Origin: a virus
Length of the DNA: 64,000 bases
Strand: one strand, 5' to 3'
IMG/VR virus record: IMGVR_UViG_3300031673_000011
Span: 1 to 64,000 of that record
This document shows positions 5,222-42,142 of this stretch, one piece after another. The notes beneath the pieces are model-generated. The model saw nothing but the letters and a program-made list of their open reading frames with translations. It was not told the origin of the DNA and made no database searches. Positions within the stretch are counted from its first letter, which is position 1, and each line of letters begins with the position of its first letter. A program made the position numbers and the translations under genes.

Positions 5222-5482
5222 TTAAACTACCCCAGCTTGTCTTAAACTAGTATAAGTTACAGCGATTCCAATTCCTAGAATTGAAAGTGCAAAGAAACCT
5301 GGAACTAATTTTAAAACTGTAGCACCCCATCCAGTTGTGTTATATAATGCAGAGTTACAACTTGTTCCTGATAAGGAATGATTTGAACTACATGCTGCAG
5401 TTAAAACTTCATCTGAAATTGGTCCAATTAAGCTAGTACCTAAAAGGATTGAAACAAAACCACCGATAAGATTTGCTATCAT
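5222..5482 (-). CDS. Spindle-virus-type capsid protein paralogue (VP3-like) with Cys-bracketed loop insertion
   Basis: Near-identical to 5492-5722 at both ends; two hydrophobic helices, ...GATVLKLVPGFF...; loop insert ACSSNHSLSGTSC. Confidence 0.7.
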   Translation of the reverse strand: MIANLIGGFVSILLGTSLIGPISDEVLTAACSSNHSLSGTSCNSALYNTTGWGATVLKLVPGFFALSILGIGIAVTYTSLRQAGVV

Positions 5483-5491
5483 TTTTTATCC

Positions 5492-5722
5492 TTAAACTAT
5501 CCCAGCTTGTCTTAAACTAGTATAAGTTACTGCGATTCCAATTCCTAGAATTGAAAGTGCAAAGAAACCTGGAACTAATTTTAAAACTGTTGCTCCCCAA
5601 CCAGTTGCATTATATAATGCACTATTAGTTGCTGCTGCAGTATTTACTTCTGTAGCAACGGGACCAATCAAACTTGTTCCTACCAATATAGACACGAATC
5701 CACCTATAAGATTTGCTATCAT
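5492..5722 (-). CDS. Spindle-virus-type major capsid protein (SSV1 VP1/His1 MCP-like hydrophobic hairpin)
   Basis: LIGGFVSILVGTSLIGPVATEV-loop-TGWGATVLKLVPGFFALSILGIGIAVTY matches the remembered fusellovirus VP1 pattern (IGIVLLPVIVSQV...TGTNATLLNLVPLFYILVLII). Confidence 0.72.
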   Translation of the reverse strand: MIANLIGGFVSILVGTSLIGPVATEVNTAAATNSALYNATGWGATVLKLVPGFFALSILGIGIAVTYTSLRQAGIV

Positions 5723-9943: not shown

Positions 9944-12640
9944 ATGGTAAAAATAAAAATAATAAAAGATACAGAAAAATGTAAAGTTGGAGAAATAGTT
10001 AAAACTTCCAAAAAGTCTGCTGAGTCTTATGTTGATGAAGGTTATGCTGAATATGTTGAAGAACTTCCTAAAATAGAGAAATCAAAAGCTAAAGACCCAA
10101 AAGAAAAAATTAAATCAACTACCCCACCAAAAATTATTCTTACAGAAGAACAAATCAATTCAACAATAAAAGAAATATCAAAATTAGAAATGCCTTTAGA
10201 AATTAATAAGAAAATAAGAAAACTATCTAAAGATTCTGAATTATCACTACAAACATTACAAAAACAATTAAATTATGAAAAAAAAGAGAATAAGAAAGGT
10301 ATATCCAATAGTGGTGATACTAATGTTACTAATGTTACTAATGTTACTAATGTTACTAATGTTATATATCCATGGGTAACATTAGTAACACGTAACAAGG
10401 CAATATGGGATTCACTTTTCAGTGATAAAACACTTGACAGAATAATGAAGTTTTTAGCAGAAGGAGATAGGGCTTTTACATACGATGAAATAGCAAAAAG
10501 ATTGGGCTTACCAGTTACAACAATTAAAATGACAATAAGTAGAAATCAGGAGCTTTTTGGAAGAAAATACCCAAATGGCAAAATTTGTTACGCATTTTGT
10601 TACGCACCGTGTGTTGCGTTGATTCAGCAAAAAATTAAGGATTATGAAGAAAATTTGCTAAAAATTAAAGAAAGAGAACTTGAACAGAATACCATTCAAA
10701 CTAAGAGTCAAAAGATAGTTCAGGAATTTAAAAATTTTTACAAACTACACAAGAAAGAACTAGGAAATTCTTTCAGACAAGGAAATAATGTTTTATATTT
10801 AGATTTTATTAAATTATCAGAGTTTGATTTATTTTTAATAGATGAATTAACTTTAAACCCAGAAGAAACATTAAAACTATTTGAATTAGCTATTGAAGAT
10901 TTAGGTTTAATAAAGAATCCAAGAGTAAGAGTAATCAATCTTCCAAAAGATTTAAATTTAAATATTGAAGAGTTAAGGTCCAAGCATCTAAATGAATTAA
11001 TTTCTTTATCTGGAAGAATTATTACTTTAAGTGATGTAAGACCCCAATGTGTAAATGCAAAATTTGAATGCCCAAGCTGTGGGACAGTCATATCTGTTCT
11101 TCAAATTGAAAAGAAGTTTAGGGAGCCTTCAAGATGTTCTTGTGGGAGAAAGGGAGGATTTAAATTAATAGATAAAGAGATGATTGAAACTGCAAGATTA
11201 ATATTAGAAGACTTACAAGAAAAAACAGATAATCCCCATGCCAAAAGATTAAATTGTTTTTTGAAAGAAGATTTACTTTCTTATGAATTAATGAGTTTAT
11301 ATAATCCAGGGGGAGAGGTTGAGATGGTTGGTATATTAAAAGAAGTTCCTGTTCCACTAAAGGAAGGAGGAATATCTACTAGATTTGAACAAGCCTTTGA
11401 AATAAATTCTATTATTTCTTCTAAAGAAGAAATAGAGGTTGATAAACTTTCTAAAGAAGAAATAGATAAAATAAAAAAATTATCTAAAGTAATTGATGAA
11501 GAAGGATTAGAAAAAATAACTTCTTCATTCTGTCCAAGCATTTATGGATATGATGAAGTGAAGAAAGCTTTAGTATTACAATTAGCCGCACAAAGAAATA
11601 AGATTGGTAAGAAAAGTGAAATAACAAAACCAAATATATTATTAATTGGTGACCCTGGGACTTCTAAAACTATTTTAGGAGAATTTTCTGTTACAATAAC
11701 TCCAGGAGCTAGAAAATCTGTTGGGGGTTCTGCTTCTGCTGTAGGATTTACAGGAGCAGTAGTTAGAGATGATTTTTCAGGTGGTTGGAGATTAGAACCA
11801 GGAGCAATTGTTTTAACTAAAGATTTGTTTATGTTAGATGAGTTAAATAATATTAAAGATGAAGATAAACCAAGATTACAAGAAGCATTATCCGAACATA
11901 CTATTACTGTAGATAAAGCAACAATTCATACAAAACTATCTGCTCCTTCTTGTTGTCTAGCAACAGCAAATCCAATCCATGGGATATTCAAAGAGAATGA
12001 GGACTTAGTCACTCAGTTTAATTTAAATCCTGCAATCATAAACAGGTTTGATATTATTTTTGTTGTTAAAGATATTGTTAATGAAGCTAAGGATTTTAAG
12101 ATTGCTAAGAAGATGAATGATAGAGAAATGAAAAAGTTATCATTTGATTACTCTGAAGATTTATTGACAAAGTTCTTCATCTATGTTAAAGAACAACCAG
12201 AACCACAAATGACAGAAGAAATTTCAGATAGAATGGCTGCAATATATTCTAGGTTAAGAAGGTATAAAACAGATTCATTAAATATAAATCCTAGAGTTCA
12301 TAAAGCATTTCAATTATTTTGTAAAGCTTCTGCAAGGATAAGATTATCAGAATATATAGAAGAAAAAGATATTGAAAGATCTTTAGAAATATTATCTGAA
12401 TCTTATTTTAAAACACCATCATATATACATTTTAAAATAGAAAAAAAAGTAAATACCCCTACAAATAAGAATATTAAAATCAAATCTATTGTTTCAACCA
12501 AAATTGTTGTTCTAAAAGATGGGGAACCATTTAACTTAACTTTGGAATCTGGGGAAATTTATAAGAAAGAAGAGTTTGGAGATGATGCAGAACAGACTAT
12601 TGAGATATTAAAAAATGATGGGAAGGTGGAGGAAGTTTAG
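9944..12640 (+). CDS. mcm: MCM replicative helicase with long N-terminal extension containing an HTH
   Basis: Zn finger CPSC...CSC, Walker A GDPGTSKT, SAVGFTGAV, LEPGAIVL, Walker B MLDE, ANP, Arg finger NRFD; HTH TYDEIAKRLGLPVTTIKMTISR. Confidence 0.95.
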   Translation: MVKIKIIKDTEKCKVGEIVKTSKKSAESYVDEGYAEYVEELPKIEKSKAKDPKEKIKSTTPPKIILTEEQINSTIKEISKLEMPLEINKKIRKLSKDSELSLQTLQKQLNYEKKENKKGISNSGDTNVTNVTNVTNVTNVIYPWVTLVTRNKAIWDSLFSDKTLDRIMKFLAEGDRAFTYDEIAKRLGLPVTTIKMTISRNQELFGRKYPNGKICYAFCYAPCVALIQQKIKDYEENLLKIKERELEQNTIQTKSQKIVQEFKNFYKLHKKELGNSFRQGNNVLYLDFIKLSEFDLFLIDELTLNPEETLKLFELAIEDLGLIKNPRVRVINLPKDLNLNIEELRSKHLNELISLSGRIITLSDVRPQCVNAKFECPSCGTVISVLQIEKKFREPSRCSCGRKGGFKLIDKEMIETARLILEDLQEKTDNPHAKRLNCFLKEDLLSYELMSLYNPGGEVEMVGILKEVPVPLKEGGISTRFEQAFEINSIISSKEEIEVDKLSKEEIDKIKKLSKVIDEEGLEKITSSFCPSIYGYDEVKKALVLQLAAQRNKIGKKSEITKPNILLIGDPGTSKTILGEFSVTITPGARKSVGGSASAVGFTGAVVRDDFSGGWRLEPGAIVLTKDLFMLDELNNIKDEDKPRLQEALSEHTITVDKATIHTKLSAPSCCLATANPIHGIFKENEDLVTQFNLNPAIINRFDIIFVVKDIVNEAKDFKIAKKMNDREMKKLSFDYSEDLLTKFFIYVKEQPEPQMTEEISDRMAAIYSRLRRYKTDSLNINPRVHKAFQLFCKASARIRLSEYIEEKDIERSLEILSESYFKTPSYIHFKIEKKVNTPTNKNIKIKSIVSTKIVVLKDGEPFNLTLESGEIYKKEEFGDDAEQTIEILKNDGKVEEV
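10319..10396. repeat. (ACTAATGTT)x5 tandem plus inverted copies inside mcm; iteron-like
   Basis: Five exact 9-mers at 10319-10363, then GTAACATTAGTAAC (reverse complement) at 10376-10389. Confidence 0.9.
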
Positions 12641-14907: not shown

Positions 14908-16698
14908 ATGAAAACAAATAAATCAAATATGTATTCCTTCATAGATAAGACCAGAAACTTTCTAGGAGGGGAGTGTCAGCATAAATGCCAATATTGTTTT
15001 ATAAATTCAATGAAAAATAAATTTCCTAATCTTAAAGAAAGATATTCTGGAGAAATAAGATTGTTAGAAAAAGAATTAGATAAAAATGAAGGAATAAATA
15101 AAACAATTTTTGTTCAGGATATGGGAGATTTATTTGAAGAATCTGTCCCAGCAGAGTTCATTTTAAAAATATTAGGACATTTAAGAGAATATCCAGAGAA
15201 TACATATTTGTTTCAAACTAAAAATCCTAAAAGGTATTTTGAATTTGAAAAGGAATTTCCAGAGAATAGTCTTTTAGGTTGTTATGATGAAAAAACAAGA
15301 GCATTAACTCCAGAAGGATTTAAGAAATATAATGAGTTGAATGAAGGAGATGAAGTATTTACAATAAATCCTATAACTGAGAAAATAGAAATAAATAAAA
15401 TAAAAGGGATTATTGTTAAGAAGTATAAGGGGAATATGATTAGAATTAAAGGAAGAAGAGTAAATTTGTTAGTTACTCCAGACCATAAGATATTAAGAAG
15501 AACAGGAAGGCATAGTAAACTAAAATTTGAAGAAGCAAAAGATGTTGCAAAAAAGTATCAATTTCGTCTTCCTTTAGGAAATTGGAATAAAGAAAATACT
15601 ATAAATTATTTAGAGTTAGATGGAAAAAATATACATATTAATGATGTTTGTTATCTTGTTGGAATATTTATTGGAGATGGATGGACTGATAAGAAAAAAA
15701 TAAAAAGAATTTCAAGAACTGGTTTAAATCGCAAAGAATGGTTAGAAAAGGCATCTATAAAAAGTGGTGGTTGGAAAAAATTAGAAGAAAATGCTGTAGA
15801 AAGAGAATACCCTTCTCGTAGAATAATTTTATCAATACCAAAAAAAGATAAAGCAAGAGAAAGAGTGGAAAATGTATTAAATAAATATAAAATAAAACAT
15901 AGTTGTTATGAGACTGAAATATATTTTTCTTCAAATGATTGGCAAAAGATATTTTTAGAATGTGGAAAGGGTGCAAAAGAAAAAACCATTCCAGAATGGT
16001 TACTTAAAGAAGGAAAAGAAGCATTGGAAAGTTTATTCTTCGGGATAATGGATAGTGATGGGCATCAAAATAGAAAATTAGTAACAACATCTGAAAGATT
16101 GTTAAGTCCATTTACTGAACTCTGTATGAAAATAGGAAAAACAATAAGAATAACAAAACAAATTGTAACTGGAAATAGATTACCAGATAATAGAATAAAT
16201 AAAAATATATCAATAGTATACAGAATTTCTTGTGGAAAAACAATGCCATTTATGAAATCAAGTAATTTAAAAGAAGAATATTATGAAGGCATTATTTGGT
16301 GTTGTTCTGTAGATAATAAAAATTTATTTATAGAAAGAGAAGGAACAAGCACTTTTTGTGGAAATTCTACAATAGAAACAAATTATGAAGATGAAATTAA
16401 AAAGATAAGCAATGCTCCTTCAATTAGTGCAAGACAATATTGGATGCAAAGACTTAAATTTGCCAAAACTTTTTTAACACTTGAACCTCTGGTGGAATTT
16501 GATTTAGAAGAAATGATAAAAATTATAAAAGATATTCAACCAGACTTTGTAAATATCGGAGCTGATTCAAAAAGGAATAATCTTTCTGAACCTTCTTGGA
16601 ATAAAGTTCAAGAACTAATTAAAAGACTAAAGGAATTTACAGAGGTAAAAATTAAATCTAATTTGGAGAGGTTAAAGAATGATACAAACACAATATAG
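14908..16698 (+). CDS. DUF5131/phage gp37-gp68-like radical-SAM-type protein interrupted by an intein
   Basis: CQHKCQYC, FVQDMGDLF, FQTKNP, after intein STIETN, LTLEPL, VNIGADS. Confidence 0.75.
   Translation: MKTNKSNMYSFIDKTRNFLGGECQHKCQYCFINSMKNKFPNLKERYSGEIRLLEKELDKNEGINKTIFVQDMGDLFEESVPAEFILKILGHLREYPENTYLFQTKNPKRYFEFEKEFPENSLLGCYDEKTRALTPEGFKKYNELNEGDEVFTINPITEKIEINKIKGIIVKKYKGNMIRIKGRRVNLLVTPDHKILRRTGRHSKLKFEEAKDVAKKYQFRLPLGNWNKENTINYLELDGKNIHINDVCYLVGIFIGDGWTDKKKIKRISRTGLNRKEWLEKASIKSGGWKKLEENAVEREYPSRRIILSIPKKDKARERVENVLNKYKIKHSCYETEIYFSSNDWQKIFLECGKGAKEKTIPEWLLKEGKEALESLFFGIMDSDGHQNRKLVTTSERLLSPFTELCMKIGKTIRITKQIVTGNRLPDNRINKNISIVYRISCGKTMPFMKSSNLKEEYYEGIIWCCSVDNKNLFIEREGTSTFCGNSTIETNYEDEIKKISNAPSISARQYWMQRLKFAKTFLTLEPLVEFDLEEMIKIIKDIQPDFVNIGADSKRNNLSEPSWNKVQELIKRLKEFTEVKIKSNLERLKNDTNTI
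15280..16365 (+). mobile_element. Intein with LAGLIDADG homing endonuclease (362 aa)
   Basis: Starts CYDEKTRALTPEG, block B VTPDH, LAGLIDADG-like GIFIGDG and GIMDSDG, ends TFCGN followed by Ser+1. Confidence 0.88.
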
Positions 16699-28453: not shown

Positions 28454-28990
28454 ATGAAAATTAAATTTGAATATGGAGATGAAGAAGTGGAAATTCCTAA
28501 AGTATTTTTGGATGGTTTTAAACAAGCAAAGAAAGAAGAAAAAGATTTAACGATTGAAGAATATTTTGATGAATTAGATTATGATAATTATTCAGAATAT
28601 TATGGTAAAATAGTAGATAAAGAAATGGCTTTATTTTTAATTGCAAAAGAACTTGGAACTGATTATGGATTTGGTGGTTATCCGAGAGAAGAATATATGA
28701 ACTTTGAGGATAATGGATTTAAATATACTATTTGTTGTTTTGGTTGGGCTAATGATGAAAATTTAAAAAGTGGAGGATATAATTTTATAGGATATAAGGA
28801 GAAAATAAGTTTTGTAACAAATAAAGAAATAAAAATAGTTGAAGATAGAATTTCAGATATATGTGGTGGATTAGCCAGCTTAGCAGAAACAGATGGAACA
28901 GAAAGTGATGCTTATAGAGAATATAAATGTGATTTAGATGATAAAAAACTTGAGTTAAGAAGATTAAAATATAAATTAAATAAAAAATGA
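28454..28990 (+). CDS. Hypothetical acidic protein
   Basis: First gene after the class I promoter at 28393. Confidence 0.55.
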   Translation: MKIKFEYGDEEVEIPKVFLDGFKQAKKEEKDLTIEEYFDELDYDNYSEYYGKIVDKEMALFLIAKELGTDYGFGGYPREEYMNFEDNGFKYTICCFGWANDENLKSGGYNFIGYKEKISFVTNKEIKIVEDRISDICGGLASLAETDGTESDAYREYKCDLDDKKLELRRLKYKLNKK

Positions 28991-29218
28991 AACAAAAAAA
29001 TAAAGAAATAAACCATATAACTATGTGTCCTTATTGCAGACAATTATTTGATATAGCAGTTGGAGATAAATTTATGTCTGGAGAAATTAAAAGAAGATGG
29101 CCAGAGAAAACAATTCATTATAGCGATTATGATGGTAAAGAAATAATTATTCATCCAGAAGCAGAAGAATATAAAAAACAGGGAAGGGATATATTAAATA
29201 AAGAAATTGAATTAAAAA

Positions 29219-30274
29219 ATGGAACTAAAACAAATACAAACAGATAAGATATTAGCAAACTTCTCACAGCCACGAGAACATTTTGATAAAGAAAAAATAA
29301 GAGAACTTTCAGAAAGTATTCTTTCTAATGGATTAATTAATCCAATTACCGTTAGAGAATATAAAGATAAGTTTATGATTGTTGCAGGAGAGAGAAGATG
29401 GCAGGCACACAAAGTTGCTGGATTAAAAACTATTTCTGCATTTGTTAAAGAATATAAGAATGATGGGGTATGGATGATTGAAAGTTTAATTGAGAATGTT
29501 CATAGAGAAGATTTAATGCCTTTGGAAAAAGCAAAATTCTTAAAAAAGATTAAGGATATTGAAAATATTTCTGAAAGAGAATTGGCTAAAAAGGTTGGAA
29601 TAAGTCAAACAGTAATTAATCAACATTTATCACTTTTGCCTATTGAGAAAGAAATTGAATTGATTGGCATGCCAATCAAAGATTATACAACAATTTCACA
29701 AATAGCTTCATTACCATCAAAAGATGACAGAGCAAAAGTATTCAAAAAGATGGAAGAAAGAGGGGTTGCTGAAACTCGTAGAGTAGTATCTGTAATAAAA
29801 AAAGCATCACCAGAAGTTAAAGAAGCACTCCTTGACGATAAAATAACTGTTCAACAAGCAGAAAGTTTAACTAAGATAGAATCTCCAAAAGCAAGAGAGC
29901 AAGCACTAAAAGAAGTAAAACAACATAGGCATATTGCAGACATAATTCCAAAATTGAAAGAAAAAGCAAAACCAGAATTAACAGATGATTTAAAGAAAAA
30001 AATGAATTCTGCACAAAAAATAATTTTTAATCATTTGTATGATGCGAGGGTTGGATTGATAAAAGCAAATAACAGTTTGAGTAAAGCTAATCTTATGTTA
30101 TATCAATTAATGCAAAGAGAGTTTGAATATGGTTTGTCAGAAAAGACATTAAAAACAACAATGCAGCAAATGATTGGGATTTTTGACGAAATCAATAAAT
30201 TCAACATTTTAACTGAAAAGTTTGAAGATTTGAAAGAAACTTTTGTTGGAAGAGTTAAGGAAATTAAAAAATGA
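29219..30274 (+). CDS. ParB/Spo0J-family protein with HTH
   Basis: QPREHF, GLINPITV, AGERRWQA, IENVHREDL, HTH SERELAKKVGISQTVI. Confidence 0.9.
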   Translation: MELKQIQTDKILANFSQPREHFDKEKIRELSESILSNGLINPITVREYKDKFMIVAGERRWQAHKVAGLKTISAFVKEYKNDGVWMIESLIENVHREDLMPLEKAKFLKKIKDIENISERELAKKVGISQTVINQHLSLLPIEKEIELIGMPIKDYTTISQIASLPSKDDRAKVFKKMEERGVAETRRVVSVIKKASPEVKEALLDDKITVQQAESLTKIESPKAREQALKEVKQHRHIADIIPKLKEKAKPELTDDLKKKMNSAQKIIFNHLYDARVGLIKANNSLSKANLMLYQLMQREFEYGLSEKTLKTTMQQMIGIFDEINKFNILTEKFEDLKETFVGRVKEIKK

Positions 30275-30780: not shown

Positions 30781-30873
30781 TAAAAGTTTCATCATTCTTT
30801 TAAAAATAGTAGTTTTGTTACTACTATTTAATATTCACAAAGGTTTATAAATTGGTTTTGTTTAAGAAAGAAT

Positions 30874-31647
30874 ATGACATTAAAAAAATACGAATTACTT
30901 AATGAAAGTTTAAAAGCAGTATCAGAAGGAGCAATAAATCTCCTGGTTTTAAAAGGAAATGCTGGATCTGGGAAAACTTTTACAACTCTTAAGTATATGA
31001 AGAAAGCAAAGATAAATTACAAATACATTAACAATTATGCAACACCCCTTTCATTCTATAAAATTATTTATGAAAATAGGAAAAAAGATATAATTATATT
31101 TGATGATGTTCAAAGCATTAATGACCCTAGAATTAAATCCATGTTAAAATCTGTTTGTGGAGAATTAGATGATGGGAAACGAATGGTTAGTTACTATTCA
31201 ACATCCCCCTTGCTTGAAAAGAACAATTTGCCAGATTCTTTTGAACCAAAGGCAAACATCGTTTTAATTTTTAATGATGATATTTCTGGGTTTGAACCAA
31301 TAACAAATAGAGGAGTAACAATTGACTTCTTTTTTAATTTCCAGGAATTAATAGAGATTTTTGAATTCTTTCAGAAATCAGCTAATATAGAACAGGAAGT
31401 TCTTGATTATGTCAAAGAGAGTTGTAATGAAGCTACAAGTAATTTAAGCATTAGAACACTTGTAATTCTTTCAAATCTTTATAGGAAGGGATATGATTTT
31501 AAAATCTTCGCAAAAGAGATATTAAAGACTGATAAAGGGCTTTATGACTTGATAAAACTTAGTGAGAAAGATTGGTGTAATGAGACTGGAATGAATAGAG
31601 CTACATATTATAGGAAAAAGAAAAGTCGCAAAAGTCGCATCATTTAG
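30874..31647 (+). CDS. AAA/P-loop ATPase with C-terminal HTH
   Basis: GNAGSGKT, IIFDD, terminal TGMNRATYYR. Confidence 0.75.
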   Translation: MTLKKYELLNESLKAVSEGAINLLVLKGNAGSGKTFTTLKYMKKAKINYKYINNYATPLSFYKIIYENRKKDIIIFDDVQSINDPRIKSMLKSVCGELDDGKRMVSYYSTSPLLEKNNLPDSFEPKANIVLIFNDDISGFEPITNRGVTIDFFFNFQELIEIFEFFQKSANIEQEVLDYVKESCNEATSNLSIRTLVILSNLYRKGYDFKIFAKEILKTDKGLYDLIKLSEKDWCNETGMNRATYYRKKKSRKSRII

Positions 31648-31763
31648 GATGTGTGCTTGTTTATATTGCTACTATAAAATGATGATAAAAGTTTATAAAG
31701 GAGTGAGTTTTAAATAAAAGATAAAATGAATCTTTTTATACAAATGAAAGGAGGTAAAGAAAA

Positions 31764-32321
31764 ATGAAGATATATAATATAACAATTGTAGGAACAAGTC
31801 CTTTGCTTATGAATAGACCATCTCAATTAGATATTGGTGATAAATCAAAAACAGCAAAGCGAGAAACACAAACCCCTAAGGAAATTGCAGAAGCTAAACT
31901 TTATATTGATTCAGAAGATAGAATATATTGTCCTGCTACTTGGTTTCATGGTTGTATAGTTGAAGCAGGAAAGCAAAAGAAGATGTTAGGCAAGGGTTCT
32001 GCGAGAGCAAATTATTCAAAAGTTTGTGGTTCAAGTGTTGAGATAAATCCATTTGAAATTTTATTAAAAGATAAATGGAAAGTATTTTCAATATTGGCTG
32101 TTAATCCAACAACAAAGGGAAAAAATATTTTGCATAGACCCCAATTTGATAAATGGGAATTGAATTTTGAAGTAGCATTTGAAGAAGAACAAATTGAAGT
32201 TTCAGTAATGAAAGAAATATTTGATATTGCTGGAAGACAGGTTGGAGTTGGAGATTGGAGACCTGCAAAGAAAGGAAGATTTGGAAAATTCCAAGTTACT
32301 TTGTGGAAAGAGAAAAAATAA
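31764..32321 (+). CDS. Stand-alone RAMP/Cas7-like (Csm3-like RRM) protein
   Basis: N-terminal ITIVGTSPLLMN, IYCPATWFHGCI (compare RAMP YIPGSSLKG), C-terminal Gly-loop GVGDWRPAKKGRFGKF; own promoter (31665-31699) and GGAGG RBS. Confidence 0.72.
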   Translation: MKIYNITIVGTSPLLMNRPSQLDIGDKSKTAKRETQTPKEIAEAKLYIDSEDRIYCPATWFHGCIVEAGKQKKMLGKGSARANYSKVCGSSVEINPFEILLKDKWKVFSILAVNPTTKGKNILHRPQFDKWELNFEVAFEEEQIEVSVMKEIFDIAGRQVGVGDWRPAKKGRFGKFQVTLWKEKK

Positions 32322-32328
32322 ATCACAA

Positions 32329-32446
32329 ATCATAATCACCTTAATAAGTGATTGAGGTGGGGTGAGGTGGGGTGAGGTCCAGTGAGGTGGGGTGAGGTAT
32401 GGTAAGGTCCGGTTTGGTGAGTTTGTCTATTCTCATAAAAATAGAC
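32329..32446 (+). ncRNA. Candidate guide RNA unit 1: 5' hairpin, (GGT-NN)x13, 3' hairpin
   Basis: AATCAC/GTGATT stem at 32334-32353; 13 pentamers at 32356-32420 (one AGT variant); GTCTATT/AATAGAC stem at 32425-32446. Confidence 0.7.
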
Positions 32447-32581
32447 ATCATAGTCATAGAAATATGATTGCGGTGTGGTGGGGTTTGGTAAGGTAAGGTG
32501 TGGTGAGGTAAGGTATGGTATGGTGTGGTGGGGTGAGGTATGGTATGGTTTGGGAGTTTTGCTCTTCTCTAAAAAGGGCAA
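32447..32581 (+). ncRNA. Candidate guide RNA unit 2: 5' hairpin, (GGT-NN)x16, 3' hairpin
   Basis: AGTCATA-GAAA-TATGATT stem; 16 perfect pentamers at 32472-32551; TTGCTCTT/AAGGGCAA stem. Confidence 0.7.
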
Positions 32582-32600
32582 TCATAATCAAGATAAAAAT

Positions 32601-32635
32601 GTTACCCCTTTCAAGTTAATAGAAAGATTTAAATA
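32601..32635 (+). promoter_or_regulatory. Class I promoter
   Basis: GTTACCCCT...AGAAAGATTTAAATA; bounds the RAMP-repeat unit on the right. Confidence 0.75.
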
Positions 32636-32703
32636 GTCTTGATTTATTGATATAATAAGAAATATGGGAAAAAAGAAAATAAATAAATTAGTAAGAAAAT
32701 AAA

Positions 32704-33009
32704 ATGAAATCAGAAATTGAATTAGGAGATAAAGTGAAATGTTTGATTACAGGATATGAAGGAGTAGCAGTTGCTAAAACAGAATTTATTAATGGATGTA
32801 TTCAATTTAGTATAGCTAAACAATTAAAGAAAAAAGATGAAAGATTTCCAGAATTTGGTGACCCATCAATAGATAGTTCAAGTTTAAGGGTTATTAAAAA
32901 AAGAGCAGTTGATTTAAGAGAAAAAGAAGAAAAAATAGAAAGGGTAAAAGAGAGAGAAAAACATACAGGTGGTCCAACTAAATTTATGGGCCCTATGAGA
33001 GGATATTAA
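32704..33009 (+). CDS. Virus-type hypothetical protein (SH3-like)
   Basis: LGDKVKCLITGYEGVAVA...GC...TGGP. Confidence 0.5.
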   Translation: MKSEIELGDKVKCLITGYEGVAVAKTEFINGCIQFSIAKQLKKKDERFPEFGDPSIDSSSLRVIKKRAVDLREKEEKIERVKEREKHTGGPTKFMGPMRGY

Positions 33010-33499
33010 TAAAATGGAAAAGAAAGAAGATATAGAAATAAAAGAAAAAATTGATAGAATTTTATTAAATCAAAGAGCAATAATGAAAAATTTAGCTTTT
33101 GGTTTTCCAACTCTAATGAAAGATGAAATATTAAATCAATCTCTATTAACTGGGATTGAAGGAACAGAAGAAATTTTCAATAAGAATCTTGAGGAGGATA
33201 AAGAATAATATGGGAGAAAGATATGAACTTATAAAAAATTGTGCATATTGTGATACACTTCACGAAGATATTTACTTTGCTCCTACTTGTGGATTTCACA
33301 CTTTCTCTTGTGATAAATGTGGAAAAAGAAATTTCATTGTCTTAGATGATTCTTTTACTGTTAAGAAAATGGAAGATGTCACCTATGAAGATATTTATAA
33401 CTCAATATCTCAAGCATCAAGTATGATGAGTGAAAAGCAAATAGAAGCTGAAGCACAAAATGTTTTTAGATCTTTATTAAAAGGGTTAGAAATAGAAAA

Positions 33500-33796
33500 A
33501 TGAACAAACTTAAATCACTAACTTGGAAATACTTTTTGAAACAAAAGAAAGAAGAGATAGGAGATTGGATAGATGATTCTTGGGAGCATATATTCGTTAT
33601 ATCTTTATTTGTTGGAGTTTTTCTTCAAGTAGGTTGGAGTGGAGAAAAGACTTATTGGATTGCTATTATTGGATTATGTGTTTTGGGTATATGGGTTATA
33701 ATTGGAATAATATCATTAATCATTGTCATTTATGATTGGATTAATTCCAATTGGAAGGAAGCAAAAAGAAAAGCAAAAAAGGAATTACAAAAATGA
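33500..33796 (+). CDS. Two-TM membrane protein, tandem paralogue A
   Basis: MNKLKSLTWKYF...WINSNWKEAKRKAK. Confidence 0.65.
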   Translation: MNKLKSLTWKYFLKQKKEEIGDWIDDSWEHIFVISLFVGVFLQVGWSGEKTYWIAIIGLCVLGIWVIIGIISLIIVIYDWINSNWKEAKRKAKKELQK

Positions 33797-39258: not shown

Positions 39259-39729
39259 ATGAAAAAAAGAAGTAAATGGGTAAAAAAGTGTTCTATATGT
39301 GGAAAAGTAATTAGAAATTGGAATAAATCTGGTTTATGTACCTTTCATTATAGGAAAGAGTATTGTAAAAAGCTGGAAGTAAAAGAGAGAAAAAAAGAAT
39401 ACCAGAAAGAATATAATAAAAGACCAGAAGTTAAAGCTAGGAAGAAAGAATATAGTCAAAGACCAGAAGTTAAAGCTAGAATAAAAAAATATAATAGCAA
39501 ATATAATAAAAGACCAAAAGTTAAGGCTAAGAGAAAAAAACAACAGAAGGAATATCAACAAAGACCTGAAGTTAAAGCCAGGAAGAAAGAATATTATCAA
39601 AGATCAGAAGTTAAAGCAAGAAGAAAAGAATATTATCAAAGACCTAGGGTTAAAGCTAGAATAAAAGAACTAAGAAAAGAGAAAAAAGAGGTGAAAAGGA
39701 AAAAACAGCTAAGTGTTACTACTATATAG
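39259..39729 (+). CDS. Zn-finger plus basic repeat protein (KKEYxQRPEVKAR repeats)
   Basis: CSIC...LCTFH and about six repeats. Confidence 0.65.
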   Translation: MKKRSKWVKKCSICGKVIRNWNKSGLCTFHYRKEYCKKLEVKERKKEYQKEYNKRPEVKARKKEYSQRPEVKARIKKYNSKYNKRPKVKAKRKKQQKEYQQRPEVKARKKEYYQRSEVKARRKEYYQRPRVKARIKELRKEKKEVKRKKQLSVTTI

Positions 39730-40003: not shown

Positions 40004-42142
40004 ATGAAATTTAAAAAAATTGCATCTGTTATTGGAAGTATGCTTCTTATTGGAGCTTCAATGGGAGTTGCTATGGCGAATACATATCCGACACCCTTTG
40101 TTCAAAATGGAAACGCAGATGTTGCGATAGTTTATGGAACTGGTTCAGCCCCAAGTGATTTAGTTGCAGCAGGTAAAATTGGGGATAATCTTAAATCTGT
40201 TTTTGATAGTTTTAATGAGGATAATAAAGTTTCAACAGGGAATTTTTCAAGTTCTGTAGGAATTACAGAAGAAGAAGTTATTCTTGGAAGCAAATTATTT
40301 GATTTTGGTAATGGAAAAATGAGAAATGTCTTTACAGATAACCAAATTCCATCTCTTATTGATGATAAAATACATTGGGATGATGGAAAGAGTACTAAGA
40401 CAAGTTTTAATGTCCACGAAGAAATTCTAGTAGGGAATATGAATCTTTTAACTACATTAGATAACAATGACTTAAAAGGTGTTGCTTTAACTAATGACAA
40501 GGATTTAGAATATCGTTATGTATTTGAGGATGAACTTAATATTAGTAGAATTGGAAATGAAGATGCTGATGATTTGACAATAAATATTCTTGGAAAAGAG
40601 TATTTAGTTGAAGAATTTGGAGATAATTCAATAACAATTTCTAGTTCAGGAGAAAGTGTTCTAAAAACTGGAGAAAGTATTATTCTTGAAGGGATAACTC
40701 TTACAGTAAGGGATATTTTTGAGGAAGCTGTCCAAATTAATGGTGTATTTATAAAGGAAGGCCAATTAAAGAATGTTGATGGATTGAAAGTTAGAGTTGA
40801 ATCAATTGCTTATCATTCTTCAGATACTTTACCAAGTAAAGTAATCCTTAAGGTTGGAAAGGAAATTTCAACTACTTATTCAGATGAAGATGCTTATATT
40901 GGAGAAGATGATTCAGATCCAAATTGGGTTTGGAAAATAAGTAATCCTGGAGTAAATGGAGGTTCTATTGGTGTTAAGTATGAGCAAAGACAATTAGATT
41001 CTGATGATGAAATAGTTTATGTTGGAGAAAGTTATACTTTCCCTGAGAACTATGCAACAGTTCAATTAGAAAGCTTAACTGATGTAGATTATGAAGATTT
41101 TGAAGTATCCTTCGATAGTTCAAAGGATTTATATTTTGCAGTAGATAATAACACTAAGATGTACGAAGATGCTAAAGTAGTTGTTCTTAAAGGGAAGTTA
41201 GATGATTCCTTTTTGATTAATGGTACAGAAACTGATGAAATTTATTTGAGGTATAACAATGTTTCAACTAGTACTATTGTAGAGGATGAGGAAAATGTAA
41301 TAATACCTTATTCTAATAATACAATGGAGTTGACCAAATTTGAATGTGATAATAGTGGAGGAATATTTTATGAAGGAGATTCCATATGTGAGTATCTAGA
41401 AGTTCTTGGAACAAAAGTAGTAACTTCTTTAAGTGAAGTTGTAGATGTCTTCTATAATGATGTGAATAAAGACTATTCAGATAGTATTAAGCCAAGATTT
41501 GCTTTTACTATAAATGGTACTGGAGATATAGGAAAATTAATCTATGAAGATACCAAATTAGATATCAAAATAGATAATAGAACATTATCTATTGGAGATT
41601 TATCAGTTGAATTAAATCCTACAGGAAATTTTACTCATTTAGGAATGGTTTCAGAAGAAGCAGAAAACAATGAAATTACTCTTAATCACAAAAGTGTTGG
41701 AAATAAAGAGGAAGACATTTTAGGTTATGATGGATTAATCTTATATGATTCTGAAGCTAATTCAGAGGATGACGAAGTTATCTTTGGTGTCCCAAGTGAA
41801 AGAGTTTATGCAACAGTAAGTGTTTTAGGTCAGGGAGAAATGGCTAGTGGAACTGTCCCTCAACTTGGTGCTATATTGGTTACAGATGATGAAGTAGCTA
41901 ATGTTGCTACAAAGAACTTAATTGTTGTTGGTGGAAGTTGTATTAATTCAGTTGCTGCTAAACTAATTGGTGTTCCGGTAAATACTTGTGGAGCAGAATG
42001 GACTGCTAAGACAAATGTTGGTGCAGGACAATACCTTCTTAAGGAATTTGTTTCTCCTTACAATAGTGGAAAAGTAGCCTTGCTTATTGCTGGCTATGAA
42101 GCTGCCGAGACAACTTTGGGTGTTAATAGTTTGATTGCTTAA
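40004..42142 (+). CDS. Archaeal S-layer protein
   Basis: MKFKKIASV signal, YPTPFV...DVAIVYG, C-terminal NLIVVGGSCINSVAAKL...LLIAGYEAAET; acidic. Confidence 0.85.
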   Translation: MKFKKIASVIGSMLLIGASMGVAMANTYPTPFVQNGNADVAIVYGTGSAPSDLVAAGKIGDNLKSVFDSFNEDNKVSTGNFSSSVGITEEEVILGSKLFDFGNGKMRNVFTDNQIPSLIDDKIHWDDGKSTKTSFNVHEEILVGNMNLLTTLDNNDLKGVALTNDKDLEYRYVFEDELNISRIGNEDADDLTINILGKEYLVEEFGDNSITISSSGESVLKTGESIILEGITLTVRDIFEEAVQINGVFIKEGQLKNVDGLKVRVESIAYHSSDTLPSKVILKVGKEISTTYSDEDAYIGEDDSDPNWVWKISNPGVNGGSIGVKYEQRQLDSDDEIVYVGESYTFPENYATVQLESLTDVDYEDFEVSFDSSKDLYFAVDNNTKMYEDAKVVVLKGKLDDSFLINGTETDEIYLRYNNVSTSTIVEDEENVIIPYSNNTMELTKFECDNSGGIFYEGDSICEYLEVLGTKVVTSLSEVVDVFYNDVNKDYSDSIKPRFAFTINGTGDIGKLIYEDTKLDIKIDNRTLSIGDLSVELNPTGNFTHLGMVSEEAENNEITLNHKSVGNKEEDILGYDGLILYDSEANSEDDEVIFGVPSERVYATVSVLGQGEMASGTVPQLGAILVTDDEVANVATKNLIVVGGSCINSVAAKLIGVPVNTCGAEWTAKTNVGAGQYLLKEFVSPYNSGKVALLIAGYEAAETTLGVNSLIA

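What the first reader, a model, noticed from the sequence alone, without database searches (positions are those of the whole stretch)
31665..32590. Solo RAMP/Cas7-like gene plus GGT-NN repeat RNAs: candidate CRISPR-independent RNA-guided system
Seen: a self-contained unit bounded by two promoters (31665 and 32601). It holds a 185-aa protein with RAMP-like hallmarks (first strand ending SPLL, the YCPATWFHG segment, C-terminal Gly-loop GVGDWRPAKKGRFGKF). Eight bp after its stop come two modules of identical design: ATCATA(A/G)TCA leader forming a hairpin that ends TGATTG, then (GGT-NN)x13 or x16, then GAGTTT, then a second hairpin. A third ATCATAATCA closes the array. The GGT phase is kept in 28 of 29 units while NN varies, which is not how a slippage microsatellite decays. 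No cas1/cas2/cas6, effector nuclease or CRISPR array is present in the window. Known: Cas7/Csm3 RAMPs polymerise on RNA with fixed periodicity and flip out bases. Inference: one subunit binds each 5-nt unit, GGU is the scaffold and the NN pairs specify a discontinuous target, probably in competing viruses or host genes. I recall a recent report of viral RAMP plus GGY/NN RNA systems (VIPR) but cannot verify it here; an instance in an archaeal spindle-type virus would be of interest either way.
Basis: partly seen in the sequence, partly recalled or inferred. Interest (0 to 1): 0.97.

Follow-up and report, generated by a model that had tools for sequence, protein, structure and literature searches.

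The report
VIPR guide-RNA system in archaeal virus
This is a genuine but ordinary new example of the VIPR system described in 2026: a small Cas7-like protein gene followed by two GGT-NN repeat guide RNA genes, here on a soil virus that probably infects tiny DPANN archaea, and what the guides aim at is still unknown.

Summary
ORF 31764-32321 (185 aa) is followed by two in-phase pentamer arrays: 32356-32420 (13 units, 12 GGT and 1 AGT) and 32472-32551 (16 of 16 GGT). No such array appeared in 200 shuffles of the 86.5-kb record.

The protein matches the solved SUSP1 Vipr protein (PDB 36pp) over its full length, E 1.3e-9, and E 1.7e-15 with a profile. The residues that hold GGY and DNA in the published structure are kept. 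In 64 of 93 related loci a GGY-NN array lies beside the gene on the same strand.

This scan has noted VIPR before on other DNA: 484 notes in at least 362 genomes.

Local features:
- Nearest genomic relatives lie in DPANN archaeal MAGs.
- No conserved accessory (vap) gene.
- A 5' hairpin with compensatory changes, an ATCATARTCA box and a 3' GAGTTT-hairpin frame each array.

No target was found by the 1-nt-skip rule, in the virus itself, in viral or metagenome contigs, or in 401 related genomes. Verdict: new member of a known kind, low to moderate interest.

The parts
31692..31699 (+). TATA-like box (TTTATAAA preceded by AAAAG): the probable promoter of the vipr transcription unit
   Evidence: Read. 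It resembles the TATA-proximal half of the 18-copy viral promoter motif, but the upstream GTTAC box is not at the usual distance. Inference; no transcript data.
31750..31755 (+). GGAGGT ribosome-binding site, 8 nt before the ATG
   Evidence: Read.
31764..32321 (+). vipr gene: 185-aa Vipr protein, the RAMP-type subunit that polymerises on the guide RNA
   Evidence: phmmer to PDB 36pp_D 'SUSP1 Vipr protein', E 1.3e-9, residues 1-183 against 1-192. Profile of 30 homologues, E 1.7e-15. phrog_4652, E 2.9e-26. tblastn to phiSUSP1, 28.6% identity over 99% of the query.
32329..32338 (+). ATCATAATCA box, copy 1
   Evidence: 3 copies in the window, all in this locus.
32333..32354 (+). 5' hairpin of module 1 (7-bp stem); the flanking AUC (32329-32331) can pair with the first GGU (32356-32358)
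   Evidence: Fold (z -1.96). Pair counts on 5 homologous leaders: 49 of 50 cells paired, and 2 pairs changed on both sides.
32356..32420 (+). vrRNA 1 guide region: 13 x (GGT-NN), unit 6 is AGT. NN string: GG GA GG GA CC GA GG GA AT AA CC TT GA
   Evidence: chance control.
32419..32446 (+). 3' tail of module 1: GAGTTT plus a 7-bp hairpin (32425-32431 / 32440-32446)
   Evidence: The same GAGTTT-plus-hairpin design follows the arrays of L004 and L082.
32447..32456 (+). ATCATAGTCA box, copy 2
32451..32470 (+). 5' hairpin of module 2 (8-bp stem); AUC (32447-32449) can pair with the first GGU (32472-32474)
   Evidence: Fold (z -4.25, 0 of 200 shuffles as stable). The same 21-nt leader stands before the array of L002, whose Vipr is 77% identical.
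32472..32551 (+). vrRNA 2 guide region: 16 x (GGT-NN). NN string: GT GG TT AA AA GT GA AA AT AT GT GG GA AT AT TT
   Evidence: chance control.
32554..32581 (+). 3' tail of module 2: GAGTTT(T) plus an 8-bp hairpin (32559-32566 / 32574-32581)
32581..32590 (+). ATCATAATCA box, copy 3; it closes the array region and has no hairpin or array after it
32601..32635 (+). Promoter of the next transcription unit (GTTAC box, 22 nt, TTTAAATA); marks the downstream limit of the cassette
   Evidence: 18 matches in the window against 3.0 expected, and 0 of 100 shuffles reach 18.

Best explanation
The stretch 31692-32590 is a compact VIPR (Viral Interference Programmable Repeat) cassette. It sits on a soil virus that probably infects DPANN archaea.

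Its parts are one gene, vipr (31764-32321), and two guide RNA genes (vrRNAs). The vrRNAs probably share one transcription unit with vipr.

The mechanism below is inferred by homology with the published SUSP1 system; none of it is shown here:
- Vipr protomers polymerise along each vrRNA, one per GGU-NN unit.
- They lock each GGU away from pairing and present the NN pairs.
- The 13 or 16 NN pairs read double-stranded DNA in which every third base is skipped (NNxNNx...).
- Binding silences transcription of the bound gene, most likely in a competing virus or other mobile element.

Specific to this lineage, each guide region is framed by three elements: an ATCATARTCA box, a 5' hairpin that can pair with the first GGU, and a 3' GAGUUU-plus-hairpin tail. 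I read these as boundary or maturation signals that define two RNAs of about 118 and 134 nt (inferred).

No accessory vap gene goes with the cassette.
For: Shown here:
1. Full-length sequence homology to the solved SUSP1 Vipr protein: E 1.3e-9 for the single sequence and E 1.7e-15 for the profile. It is the only PDB sequence matched by the profile, 1 of 177,635.
2. 132 phage records match by tblastn, phiSUSP1 among them.
3. I mapped the residues that the cryo-EM paper names by hand on the alignment. Kept: R138->R125, D177/W178/R179->D164/W165/R166, K33->K27, R39->R33, K82->K70, G87/K88->G76/K77. One change: H17->N17. N17, K77, R125, D164, W165 and R166 are invariant in 30 of 30 aligned homologues.
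4. Two arrays of 13 and 16 GGT-NN units fall within the published 9-16 range. They lie on the gene's strand, and 0 of 200 shuffles produce one.
5. 64 of 93 related loci have an array of 7 or more GGY units within 1.5 kb of vipr on the same strand. The opposite strand has one in 1 of 93, and shuffles give 0 of 93 in each of 5 replicates.
6. The scaffold is kept while NN differs. L002 (Vipr 77% identical) has the same 21-nt leader and 13 of 13 GGT, but another NN string.
7. No self-target: best 17 of 26 and 22 of 32 with the 1-nt skip, about the same as skips 0 and 2 (16-18 of 26, 21-22 of 32). The paper reports the same for its guides.
8. Vipr is the best conserved of about 20 proteins shared with the related complete 46.4-kb virus G005.
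Against: - RRM, thumb and G-loop therefore rest on sequence homology at 28.6% identity.
- No RNA run holds the virus, so transcription, RNA ends and binding are untested.
- No target was found. Exact full or partial 1-skip patterns gave 0 hits in 6 scans of viral contigs.
- One metagenome hit extends to only 23 of 32 (72%), below the papers' 80% line.
- With up to 3 mismatches, 0 of 401 genomes of the phylum of a DPANN relative matched either guide, and 0 of 5 handles matched vr2.
- No conserved neighbour that could be a vap gene.
- The 3' hairpins are not significantly stable on their own (z -1.1 to -1.2).
- The upstream promoter is only half of the virus's usual motif.
Confidence: 0.88

Rival explanations
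1. It is a real VIPR cassette, but its guides regulate the virus's host or the infection programme (host DPANN genes, or the host of the DPANN cell) rather than attacking competing viruses.
For: No viral target was found in 6 scans of IMG/VR contigs. The preprint of 16 Oct 2026 shows guides directed at host-genome decoy sites (abstract).
Against: With up to 3 mismatches, 0 of 401 genomes of a DPANN relative's phylum matched either guide, and 0 of 5 handles matched vr2. In print, most natural targets are other mobile elements. Absence of hits is weak evidence either way, because soil DPANN hosts and their viruses are poorly sampled.
Confidence: 0.12
2. The arrays are a decaying or inert remnant, or act as decoys or sponges for another virus's Vipr rather than as guides for their own.
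For: Array 1 has one off-consensus unit (AGT) and a low-complexity NN string (GG GA GG GA ...). No target was found. Orphan and decoy vrRNAs are in print (abstract).
Against: The vipr gene is intact, and it is the best conserved protein shared with the related virus G005. 28 of 29 units keep the GGT phase. AGT is a normal unit in sister clades that use NGT-NN. The paper notes internal degeneracy in working vrRNAs.
Confidence: 0.05
3. The pentamer tracts are not RNA genes. They would be slippage microsatellites, G-quadruplex-forming DNA, or part of a coding sequence (mechanical ORFs 32475-32636 + and 32336-32581 -).
For: Mechanical ORFs of 53 and 81 aa cover the arrays. (GGNNN)n can in principle form two-tier G-quadruplexes (general knowledge).
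Against: The GGT phase is kept while NN varies. The tract type co-occurs with vipr homologues on the same strand in 64 of 93 loci, against 1 of 93 on the other strand. Homologous tracts are transcribed and co-purify with Vipr in the published systems. Array lengths in relatives range from 12 to 31 units, so they do not preserve a reading frame.
Confidence: 0.02

Closest known systems
Type II VIPR of Escherichia phage SUSP1 (Vipr + vap1 + four vrRNAs; PDB 36pp; bioRxiv 10.64898/2026.04.26.720920 and .720927)
   Same: - Homologous Vipr protein over its full length.
- G-loop D-W-R, thumb Arg and DNA-clamp Lys/Arg residues kept (hand mapping).
- GGY-NN pentamer guides of 13 and 16 units, on the gene's strand and downstream of it.
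- A structured 3' tail after the repeats.
- Viral location, and no self-target.
   Different: - Only 28.6% identity.
- No vap gene: no neighbour is shared with 15 related loci.
- No upstream vrRNA.
- The tail is GAGUUU plus a simple hairpin, not a demonstrated pseudoknot.
- Each guide has a 5' hairpin and an ATCATARTCA box, which the parts of the papers I read do not mention.
- The host is probably a DPANN archaeon, with archaeal-type promoters.
- H17 of SUSP1 is N17 here.
Other VIPR types and non-canonical VIPR arrays (types I and III-VII in 720920; NGY/other units in bioRxiv 10.64898/2026.10.21.760802)
   Same: The minimal vipr-plus-array locus. Some published systems encode one or few vrRNAs. 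Sister loci at 34-39% identity use TGT/AGT/CGT-NN units, like the published non-canonical motifs.
   Different: I could not assign a type. The types are defined in figures and supplementary data that I could not read. No hammerhead or other Rfam family lies between the arrays, so this is not the ribozyme-interspersed architecture. The arrays do not overlap, so it is not the staggered one.
Class 1 CRISPR-Cas backbone (Cas7/Csm3/Cmr4 RAMP filament on crRNA)
   Same: It works alike in principle. A RAMP subunit repeats along a guide RNA at a fixed period and flips out bases. This relationship was established by the VIPR papers from structure.
   Different: It is not a member. There is no Pfam RAMP match, no Cas1 and no repeat-spacer array. 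The period is 5 nt with 2 pairing bases, not 6 nt with 5. The target is gapped double-stranded DNA. The published function is silencing, not cleavage.

Membership tests
VIPR system | Vipr protein: homologue of the Vipr family | tested here: met
   PDB 36pp_D, E 1.3e-9, residues 1-183 against 1-192. Profile E 1.7e-15, and the only PDB match. tblastn to 132 phage records, 131 of them covering at least 80% of the query.
VIPR system | RAMP fold with RRM core, glycine-rich loop and thumb | not testable with these tools
At sequence level the G-loop GVGDWRP and the thumb R125 align with SUSP1 G-V-G-D177-W178-R179-P and R138, and they are invariant in 30 of 30 homologues.
VIPR system | vrRNA genes: tandem YNNGG / GGY-NN pentamers (9-16 units in the reference clades) next to vipr | tested here: met
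   13 and 16 units on the gene's strand, starting 35 nt after the stop codon. 0 of 200 shuffles produce such an array.
VIPR system | GGY conserved and NN hypervariable among related systems | tested here: met
   Among the 8 nearest loci the units are almost all GGT or GGC: 13/13, 16/17, 30/30, 22/22, 12/12, 18/18, 12/12 and 29/31. Each array has 6-13 distinct NN. L002 shares the leader but not the NN string. 64 of 93 loci carry arrays.
VIPR system | Invariable, structured 3' tail after the repeats | tested here: inconclusive
   GAGTTT plus a hairpin follows both arrays, and also those of L004 and L082. It is missing in L002 and L003, and the hairpins score only z -1.1 to -2.0. A 3-bp GAG/CUC pseudoknot is possible by eye only.
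VIPR system | vap accessory gene beside vipr ('typically' present; six vap families for seven types) | tested here: not met
   blastp of the window's + strand ORFs of 50 aa or more from 26-37 kb against the ORFs of 15 related loci (about 4 kb either side where the contig allows): only vipr is shared. Neighbours: a P-loop NTPase and ParB upstream, and a 101-aa ORF without a Pfam match downstream. The paper does not make vap obligatory.
VIPR system | Viral or proviral location | tested here: met
   IMG/VR virus record of 86,566 bases. About 20 proteins are shared with the complete 46.4-kb virus G005.
VIPR system | vrRNAs are expressed and bound by Vipr | not testable with these tools
   No RNA run holds the stretch. 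The reads laid were DNA contigs only.
VIPR system | Natural targets that follow the 1-nt-skip rule (at least 80% NN match), and none in the own genome | tested here: inconclusive
   Own genome: best 65% and 69%, about the same as skips 0 and 2. Elsewhere: 0 hits in 6 viral scans; 1 metagenome hit at 72%; 0 of 401 genomes with up to 3 mismatches.
Class 1 CRISPR-Cas (Cas7 backbone) | Cas7-family RAMP recognised by family models, with a CRISPR repeat-spacer array and an adaptation module | tested here: not met
   Pfam: 0 families for the protein at E up to 10. PF03787 and PF01867: 0 matches in the record, while the named control genomes ring. No repeat-spacer array among 7 direct-repeat families.

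The most novel reading that the evidence does not exclude
In this lineage of DPANN-archaeal viruses VIPR may run as a vap-less, single-promoter cassette with its own way of making guides. Each vrRNA would be cut or bounded at an ATCATARTCA box. It would start with a hairpin, supported by compensatory changes, that pairs with and masks the first GGU, which would set the register for Vipr polymerisation. It would end in a GAGUUU-hairpin cap that may form a mini-pseudoknot. That would be a first view of VIPR guide biogenesis in archaea. The guides would be aimed at soil DPANN viruses that are not yet in the sequence collections.
Probability: 0.3. Interest if true: 0.4.

Novelty: new member of a known kind. 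Interest (0 to 1): 0.22.

Why it matters
It adds a clean, minimal VIPR example from a virus lineage that probably infects DPANN archaea. The nearest genomic relatives lie in Nanoarchaeota, Woesearchaeota and Iainarchaeum MAGs.

The cassette has only one protein gene, two guides and simple RNA framing elements. It could therefore be a convenient archaeal counterpart to the E. coli phage model, both for asking how guides are bounded and loaded and for testing whether VIPR works with archaeal transcription.

It does not change the picture of what VIPR is. The class, its code and its spread to archaeal viruses are already in print, and this scan has met it many times.

Tried and rejected
**Structure.** I relied on sequence matches to PDB instead.

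**More close relatives.** A leader-based pattern scan of viral contigs found nothing. The leader and tail comparison therefore rests on 5-8 loci.

**Rfam.** Nothing credible lies in 31000-33500, and no hammerhead (best E 0.65, far below gathering score).

**Pfam.** No family for Vipr.

**Expression.** No RNA holder was listed. Laying DNA contigs of four soil runs showed many variant GGT-NN arrays and leaders in the same soils. The three variable positions listed inside array 2 (32516, 32520, 32546) all fall on NN positions. This is weak: the contigs were aligned through the shared GGT scaffold, 165 further rows were not shown, and cover over 32340-32416 was almost nil.

**Targets**
- Own record: negative.
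- 166 guides taken from related loci against this virus: the 1-nt skip did no better than skips 0 or 2 or a permuted guide.
- Both guides against 752 kb of fetched loci: nothing above the permuted controls.
- Six exact scans of viral contigs: 0 hits.
- One metagenome scan with units 3-13 of guide 2: a single hit, in an AT-rich part of a 52.6%-GC stretch (L095) with no ORF over 49 aa. It is in codon phase with a 49-aa ORF, but only 1 of the 10 remaining NN bases matches. I treat it as chance.
- 5 handles (guide 2 only) and 401 genomes (both guides) with up to 3 mismatches: 0.
Matches between 80% and about 90% could not be searched in the large collections.

**VIPR type.** It could not be assigned. 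The types are defined in figures and supplements, and supplements are closed. They may also list this clade.

**Reversed-sequence control.** The control (24 of 93) is uninformative, because a reversed array keeps its GG period. I replaced it by block shuffles.

**Relaxed 'xGxxx' scan.** This scan had no control, so I use only the printed examples.
Full report
**What is there**

The window is the first 64 kb of an 86,566-base IMG/VR virus record. The record is linear, and CheckV estimates it as 55% complete. GC content is 25-31% and nearly all genes lie on the + strand. DNA contigs from six soil metagenome runs hold it, five of them possibly the source of this DNA; no RNA run is listed.

ORF 31764-32321 encodes 185 aa. 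Seven bases after its stop codon begins a 262-nt non-coding stretch with two modules of the same design:
- an ATCATARTCA box (32329 and 32447);
- a hairpin (32333-32354 and 32451-32470);
- a tract of GGT-NN pentamers in strict phase (32356-32420 with 13 units, one of them AGT; 32472-32551 with 16 units);
- GAGTTT, then a second hairpin.

A third box (32581-32590) closes the stretch. A copy of the virus's recurrent promoter motif follows at 32601. That motif has 18 matches in the window against 3.0 expected.

Upstream of the ORF only the TATA-proximal half of that motif is present (TTTATAAA at 31692). No promoter motif lies between the gene and the arrays. I therefore infer one transcription unit from about 31700 to 32590.

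**Chance**

The two tracts are the only in-phase arrays of 7 or more GGY units on either strand of the record. None arose in 200 block shuffles. The box occurs three times in the window, all within 262 nt, and 0.73 are expected in the whole window.

**What the protein is**

Pfam gives nothing at E up to 10. PHROGs gives phrog_4652, of unknown function, at E 2.9e-26 over the full length.

Against all PDB sequences the best match is 36pp chain D, 'SUSP1 Vipr protein': E 1.3e-9, residues 1-183 against 1-192. The next matches are at E 0.4. A profile of 30 homologues matches only that entry, at E 1.7e-15. tblastn finds 132 phage records, mostly Felix-O1-like coliphages. They include phiSUSP1 at 28.6% identity over 99% of the query.

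The cryo-EM preprint names the residues that hold the guide and the DNA. I mapped them by hand on the alignment:

| SUSP1 residue | Role in the paper | Here |
|---|---|---|
| R138 | thumb | R125 |
| D177-W178-R179 | G-loop | D164-W165-R166 |
| K33, R39 | bundle | K27, R33 |
| K82, G87, K88 | non-target-strand clamp | K70, G76, K77 |
| H17 | contacts G1 | N17 |

N17, K77, R125, D164, W165 and R166 are invariant in all 30 aligned homologues.

**Do relatives carry the arrays?**

The scan of viral contigs found 182 relatives, of which the best 80 were kept. The scan of species genomes found 13. Of these 93 loci:
- 64 have an array of 7 or more GGY units on the vipr strand within 1.5 kb of the gene;
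- 1 has one on the opposite strand;
- 3 have one further away on the same strand;
- block shuffles give 0 of 93 in each of five replicates.

Of the 29 loci without such an array, some are cut off just after the gene (L012, L094). Those I printed (L006, L008, L015, L019) carry TGT/AGT/CGT/TGC-NN pentamers instead. Non-canonical units of this kind are in print.

In the eight nearest loci the units are almost purely GGT or GGC, with 6-13 distinct NN per array and 12 to 31 units. L002, whose Vipr is 77% identical, has the same 21-nt leader as module 2 and 13 of 13 GGT, but an unrelated NN string. This is the published signature: fixed scaffold, hypervariable NN.

**Comparison with what is known**

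The system was published in 2026 as VIPR. The discovery preprint describes the following (Results, Discussion and methods sections read):
- a Vipr RAMP protein;
- vrRNAs of 9-16 YNNGG units with a structured 3' tail;
- a usual accessory gene, vap;
- recognition of double-stranded DNA by the NN pairs, with one skipped base per unit;
- transcriptional silencing of competing phages and satellites;

The structural preprint shows one protomer per repeat and an R-loop triplex (Results part 1 read). A preprint of 16 October adds satellite counter-guides and orphan guides (abstract, outline and methods section 17 read). A preprint of 22 October recovers 99 VIPR-like clusters from intergenic sequence (passages read).

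The locus meets the tests for the protein, the arrays, scaffold-versus-NN variation, viral location and absence of self-targets. It lacks a vap gene. Expression, binding and targets remain open (see Membership tests).

It is not a CRISPR-Cas member:
- no Pfam RAMP or Cas1 match, while the named control genomes ring;
- no repeat-spacer array.

**Host and virus**

The nearest Vipr relatives in species genomes are these:

| Genome | Identity |
|---|---|
| Nanoarchaeota MAG | 59% |
| 'archaeon bin1429', 648-kb chromosome | 58% |
| unclassified 'bacterium' MAG contig of 4 kb | 57% |
| Woesearchaeota MAG | 48% |
| Iainarchaeum MAG | 34% |

The window also encodes:
- an MCM helicase;
- an S-layer-like protein, two DNA methylases, radical-SAM proteins, one of them with a sub-threshold intein match, and a GIY-less NUMOD3 protein;
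- ParB, a P-loop NTPase and an RNA ligase.

Its promoters have a TATA-type box. Together this points to an archaeal host, probably a DPANN archaeon. The evidence is indirect.

A complete 46.4-kb virus with terminal repeats (G005, the source of L002) shares about 20 proteins with this record. Vipr, at 77%, is the best conserved of them. So vipr is a retained gene of this virus lineage. It sits in a different neighbourhood there, and none of the window's + strand ORFs of 50 aa or more between 26 and 37 kb, apart from vipr, recurs near vipr in 15 related loci.

**Lineage-specific RNA framing**

The 5' hairpin recurs before the array in the window (twice), L002, L082 and L084. On the alignment of these five leaders:
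- 49 of 50 cells form standard pairs;
- 2 of 10 pairs change on both sides (3 cells);
- 16 of 500 shuffles reach the observed pairing or covariation;
- slid controls pair 30-51% of cells.

With five related sequences this is suggestive, not proof. In the minimum-energy folds of window m1, window m2 and L082 the AUC of the box pairs with the first GGU. L084 also pairs its leader with the first GGU, in a different register. L004 and L005 have other hairpins before their arrays, and L003 has none.

The GAGTTT-plus-hairpin tail recurs in L004 and L082, but not in L002 or L003. By eye, GAG could pair with CUC at the start of both tail loops, which would give a small pseudoknot. I did not test this.

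I read the boxes, 5' hairpins and tails as boundary or maturation signals. Whether the hairpin is in the mature RNA is unknown.

**Targets**

I decoded the guides as the papers do (GGY replaced by one wildcard).
- Guide 1 reads GGxGAxGGxGAxCCxGAxGGxGAxATxAAxCCxTTxGA.
- Guide 2 reads GTxGGxTTxAAxAAxGTxGAxAAxATxATxGTxGGxGAxATxATxTT.

Results:
- Own record: best 17 of 26 and 22 of 32, about the same as skips 0 and 2.
- Viral contigs: 0 exact hits for the full patterns and four sub-patterns of 10-11 units.
- Metagenome contigs, guide 2 units 3-13: one hit (L095). Its flanks match 1 of 10 bases, for 23 of 32 overall, and it lies in an AT-rich region with no ORF over 49 aa. I count it as chance.
- 5 related genomes or records with up to 3 mismatches, guide 2 only: none.
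- 401 genomes sampled from the phylum of the 'bin1429' relative, up to 3 mismatches, both guides: none.
- Reverse test: 166 guides from related loci do not hit this virus better than the controls do.

The targets are therefore unknown. The likeliest reason is that the co-occurring soil elements are not in the collections, or that they match at 80-90%, which I could not search at scale.

**Verdict**

This is a new member of a known, recently published kind. It has modest lineage-specific features: a probable DPANN virus host, no vap gene, a 5' hairpin and box, and a simple hairpin tail. It has no identified target.

Earlier notes of this scan hold the same words in 484 findings from at least 362 genomes, so the find is not rare within the scan. 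Interest is low to moderate.

Noticed in passing
window 5847-63782 (18 sites): A recurrent promoter-like motif, GTTAC + 22 nt + TTTAWAWA. It has 18 matches within one mismatch against 3.0 expected: 17 on the + strand (one of them, 10334, inside the 9-nt repeat at 10315-10364) and one on the - strand. The spacer carries a conserved TAGAAAG/GGGAAAG segment just before the TATA-like box.
   Followed up: partly
L082:2725-2874, L084:4574-4683, L086:4541-4695, L068:5623-5767, L073:4841-4995: Relatives carry uninterrupted in-phase GGY-NN tracts of 22 to 31 units. That is well beyond the 9-16 units stated in the main text of the discovery preprint. They may be single long guides or abutting guides without spacers.
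   Followed up: no
L006, L008, L015, L019 (coordinates): Vipr homologues at 34-39% identity are flanked by pentamer arrays with TGT/AGT/CGT/TGC-NN units instead of GGY-NN. Each array ends in GGGTT or GGATT.
   Followed up: partly
L036:2714-2984: The only locus of 93 in which the GGY-NN arrays (four, of 11-14 units) lie on the strand opposite to the vipr match.
   Followed up: no
window 14908-16698: A 596-aa ORF that combines DUF5131 and a sub-threshold radical-SAM match with a sub-threshold Intein_splicing match spanning residues 139-475. It may be an intein-interrupted gene in a viral genome.
   Followed up: no
window 9944-12640 and 10315-10364: An MCM helicase with an N-terminal HTH region. 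Four overlapping copies of a 9-nt unit (TACTAATGT) lie inside its coding sequence.
   Followed up: no
window 40004-42142: A 712-aa protein with an archaeal S-layer-like outer domain (PF05124, E 5.4e-11), encoded by the virus.
   Followed up: no
window 5222-5722 and G005 28697-29228: Two adjacent small paralogous proteins (76-94 aa) are 54-71% identical between this virus and the 46.4-kb complete virus G005. After Vipr they are the best conserved shared genes. Earlier first-stage notes call them spindle-type capsid proteins; I did not test that.
   Followed up: no
window 39354-39661: Tandem 39/51-nt repeats rich in AAAGACCAGAAGTTAAAGC, seen by TRF and the repeat finder. I did not check whether they lie in a coding sequence.
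   Followed up: no
L095:1054-1085 (-): An exact 22-of-22 match to units 3-13 of guide 2 in the AT-rich first 1.5 kb of L095, a 10.9-kb stretch (52.6% GC) of a 52.9-kb metagenome contig. It is in codon phase with a 49-aa ORF, but its flanks do not match (23 of 32 overall). Probably chance.
   Followed up: yes
window 30800-33100, soil runs X1, X4, X5, X6: The same soils hold many contigs with other GGT-NN arrays and variant leaders joined to near-identical vipr 3' ends. This suggests a population of related cassettes with different guides.
   Followed up: partly
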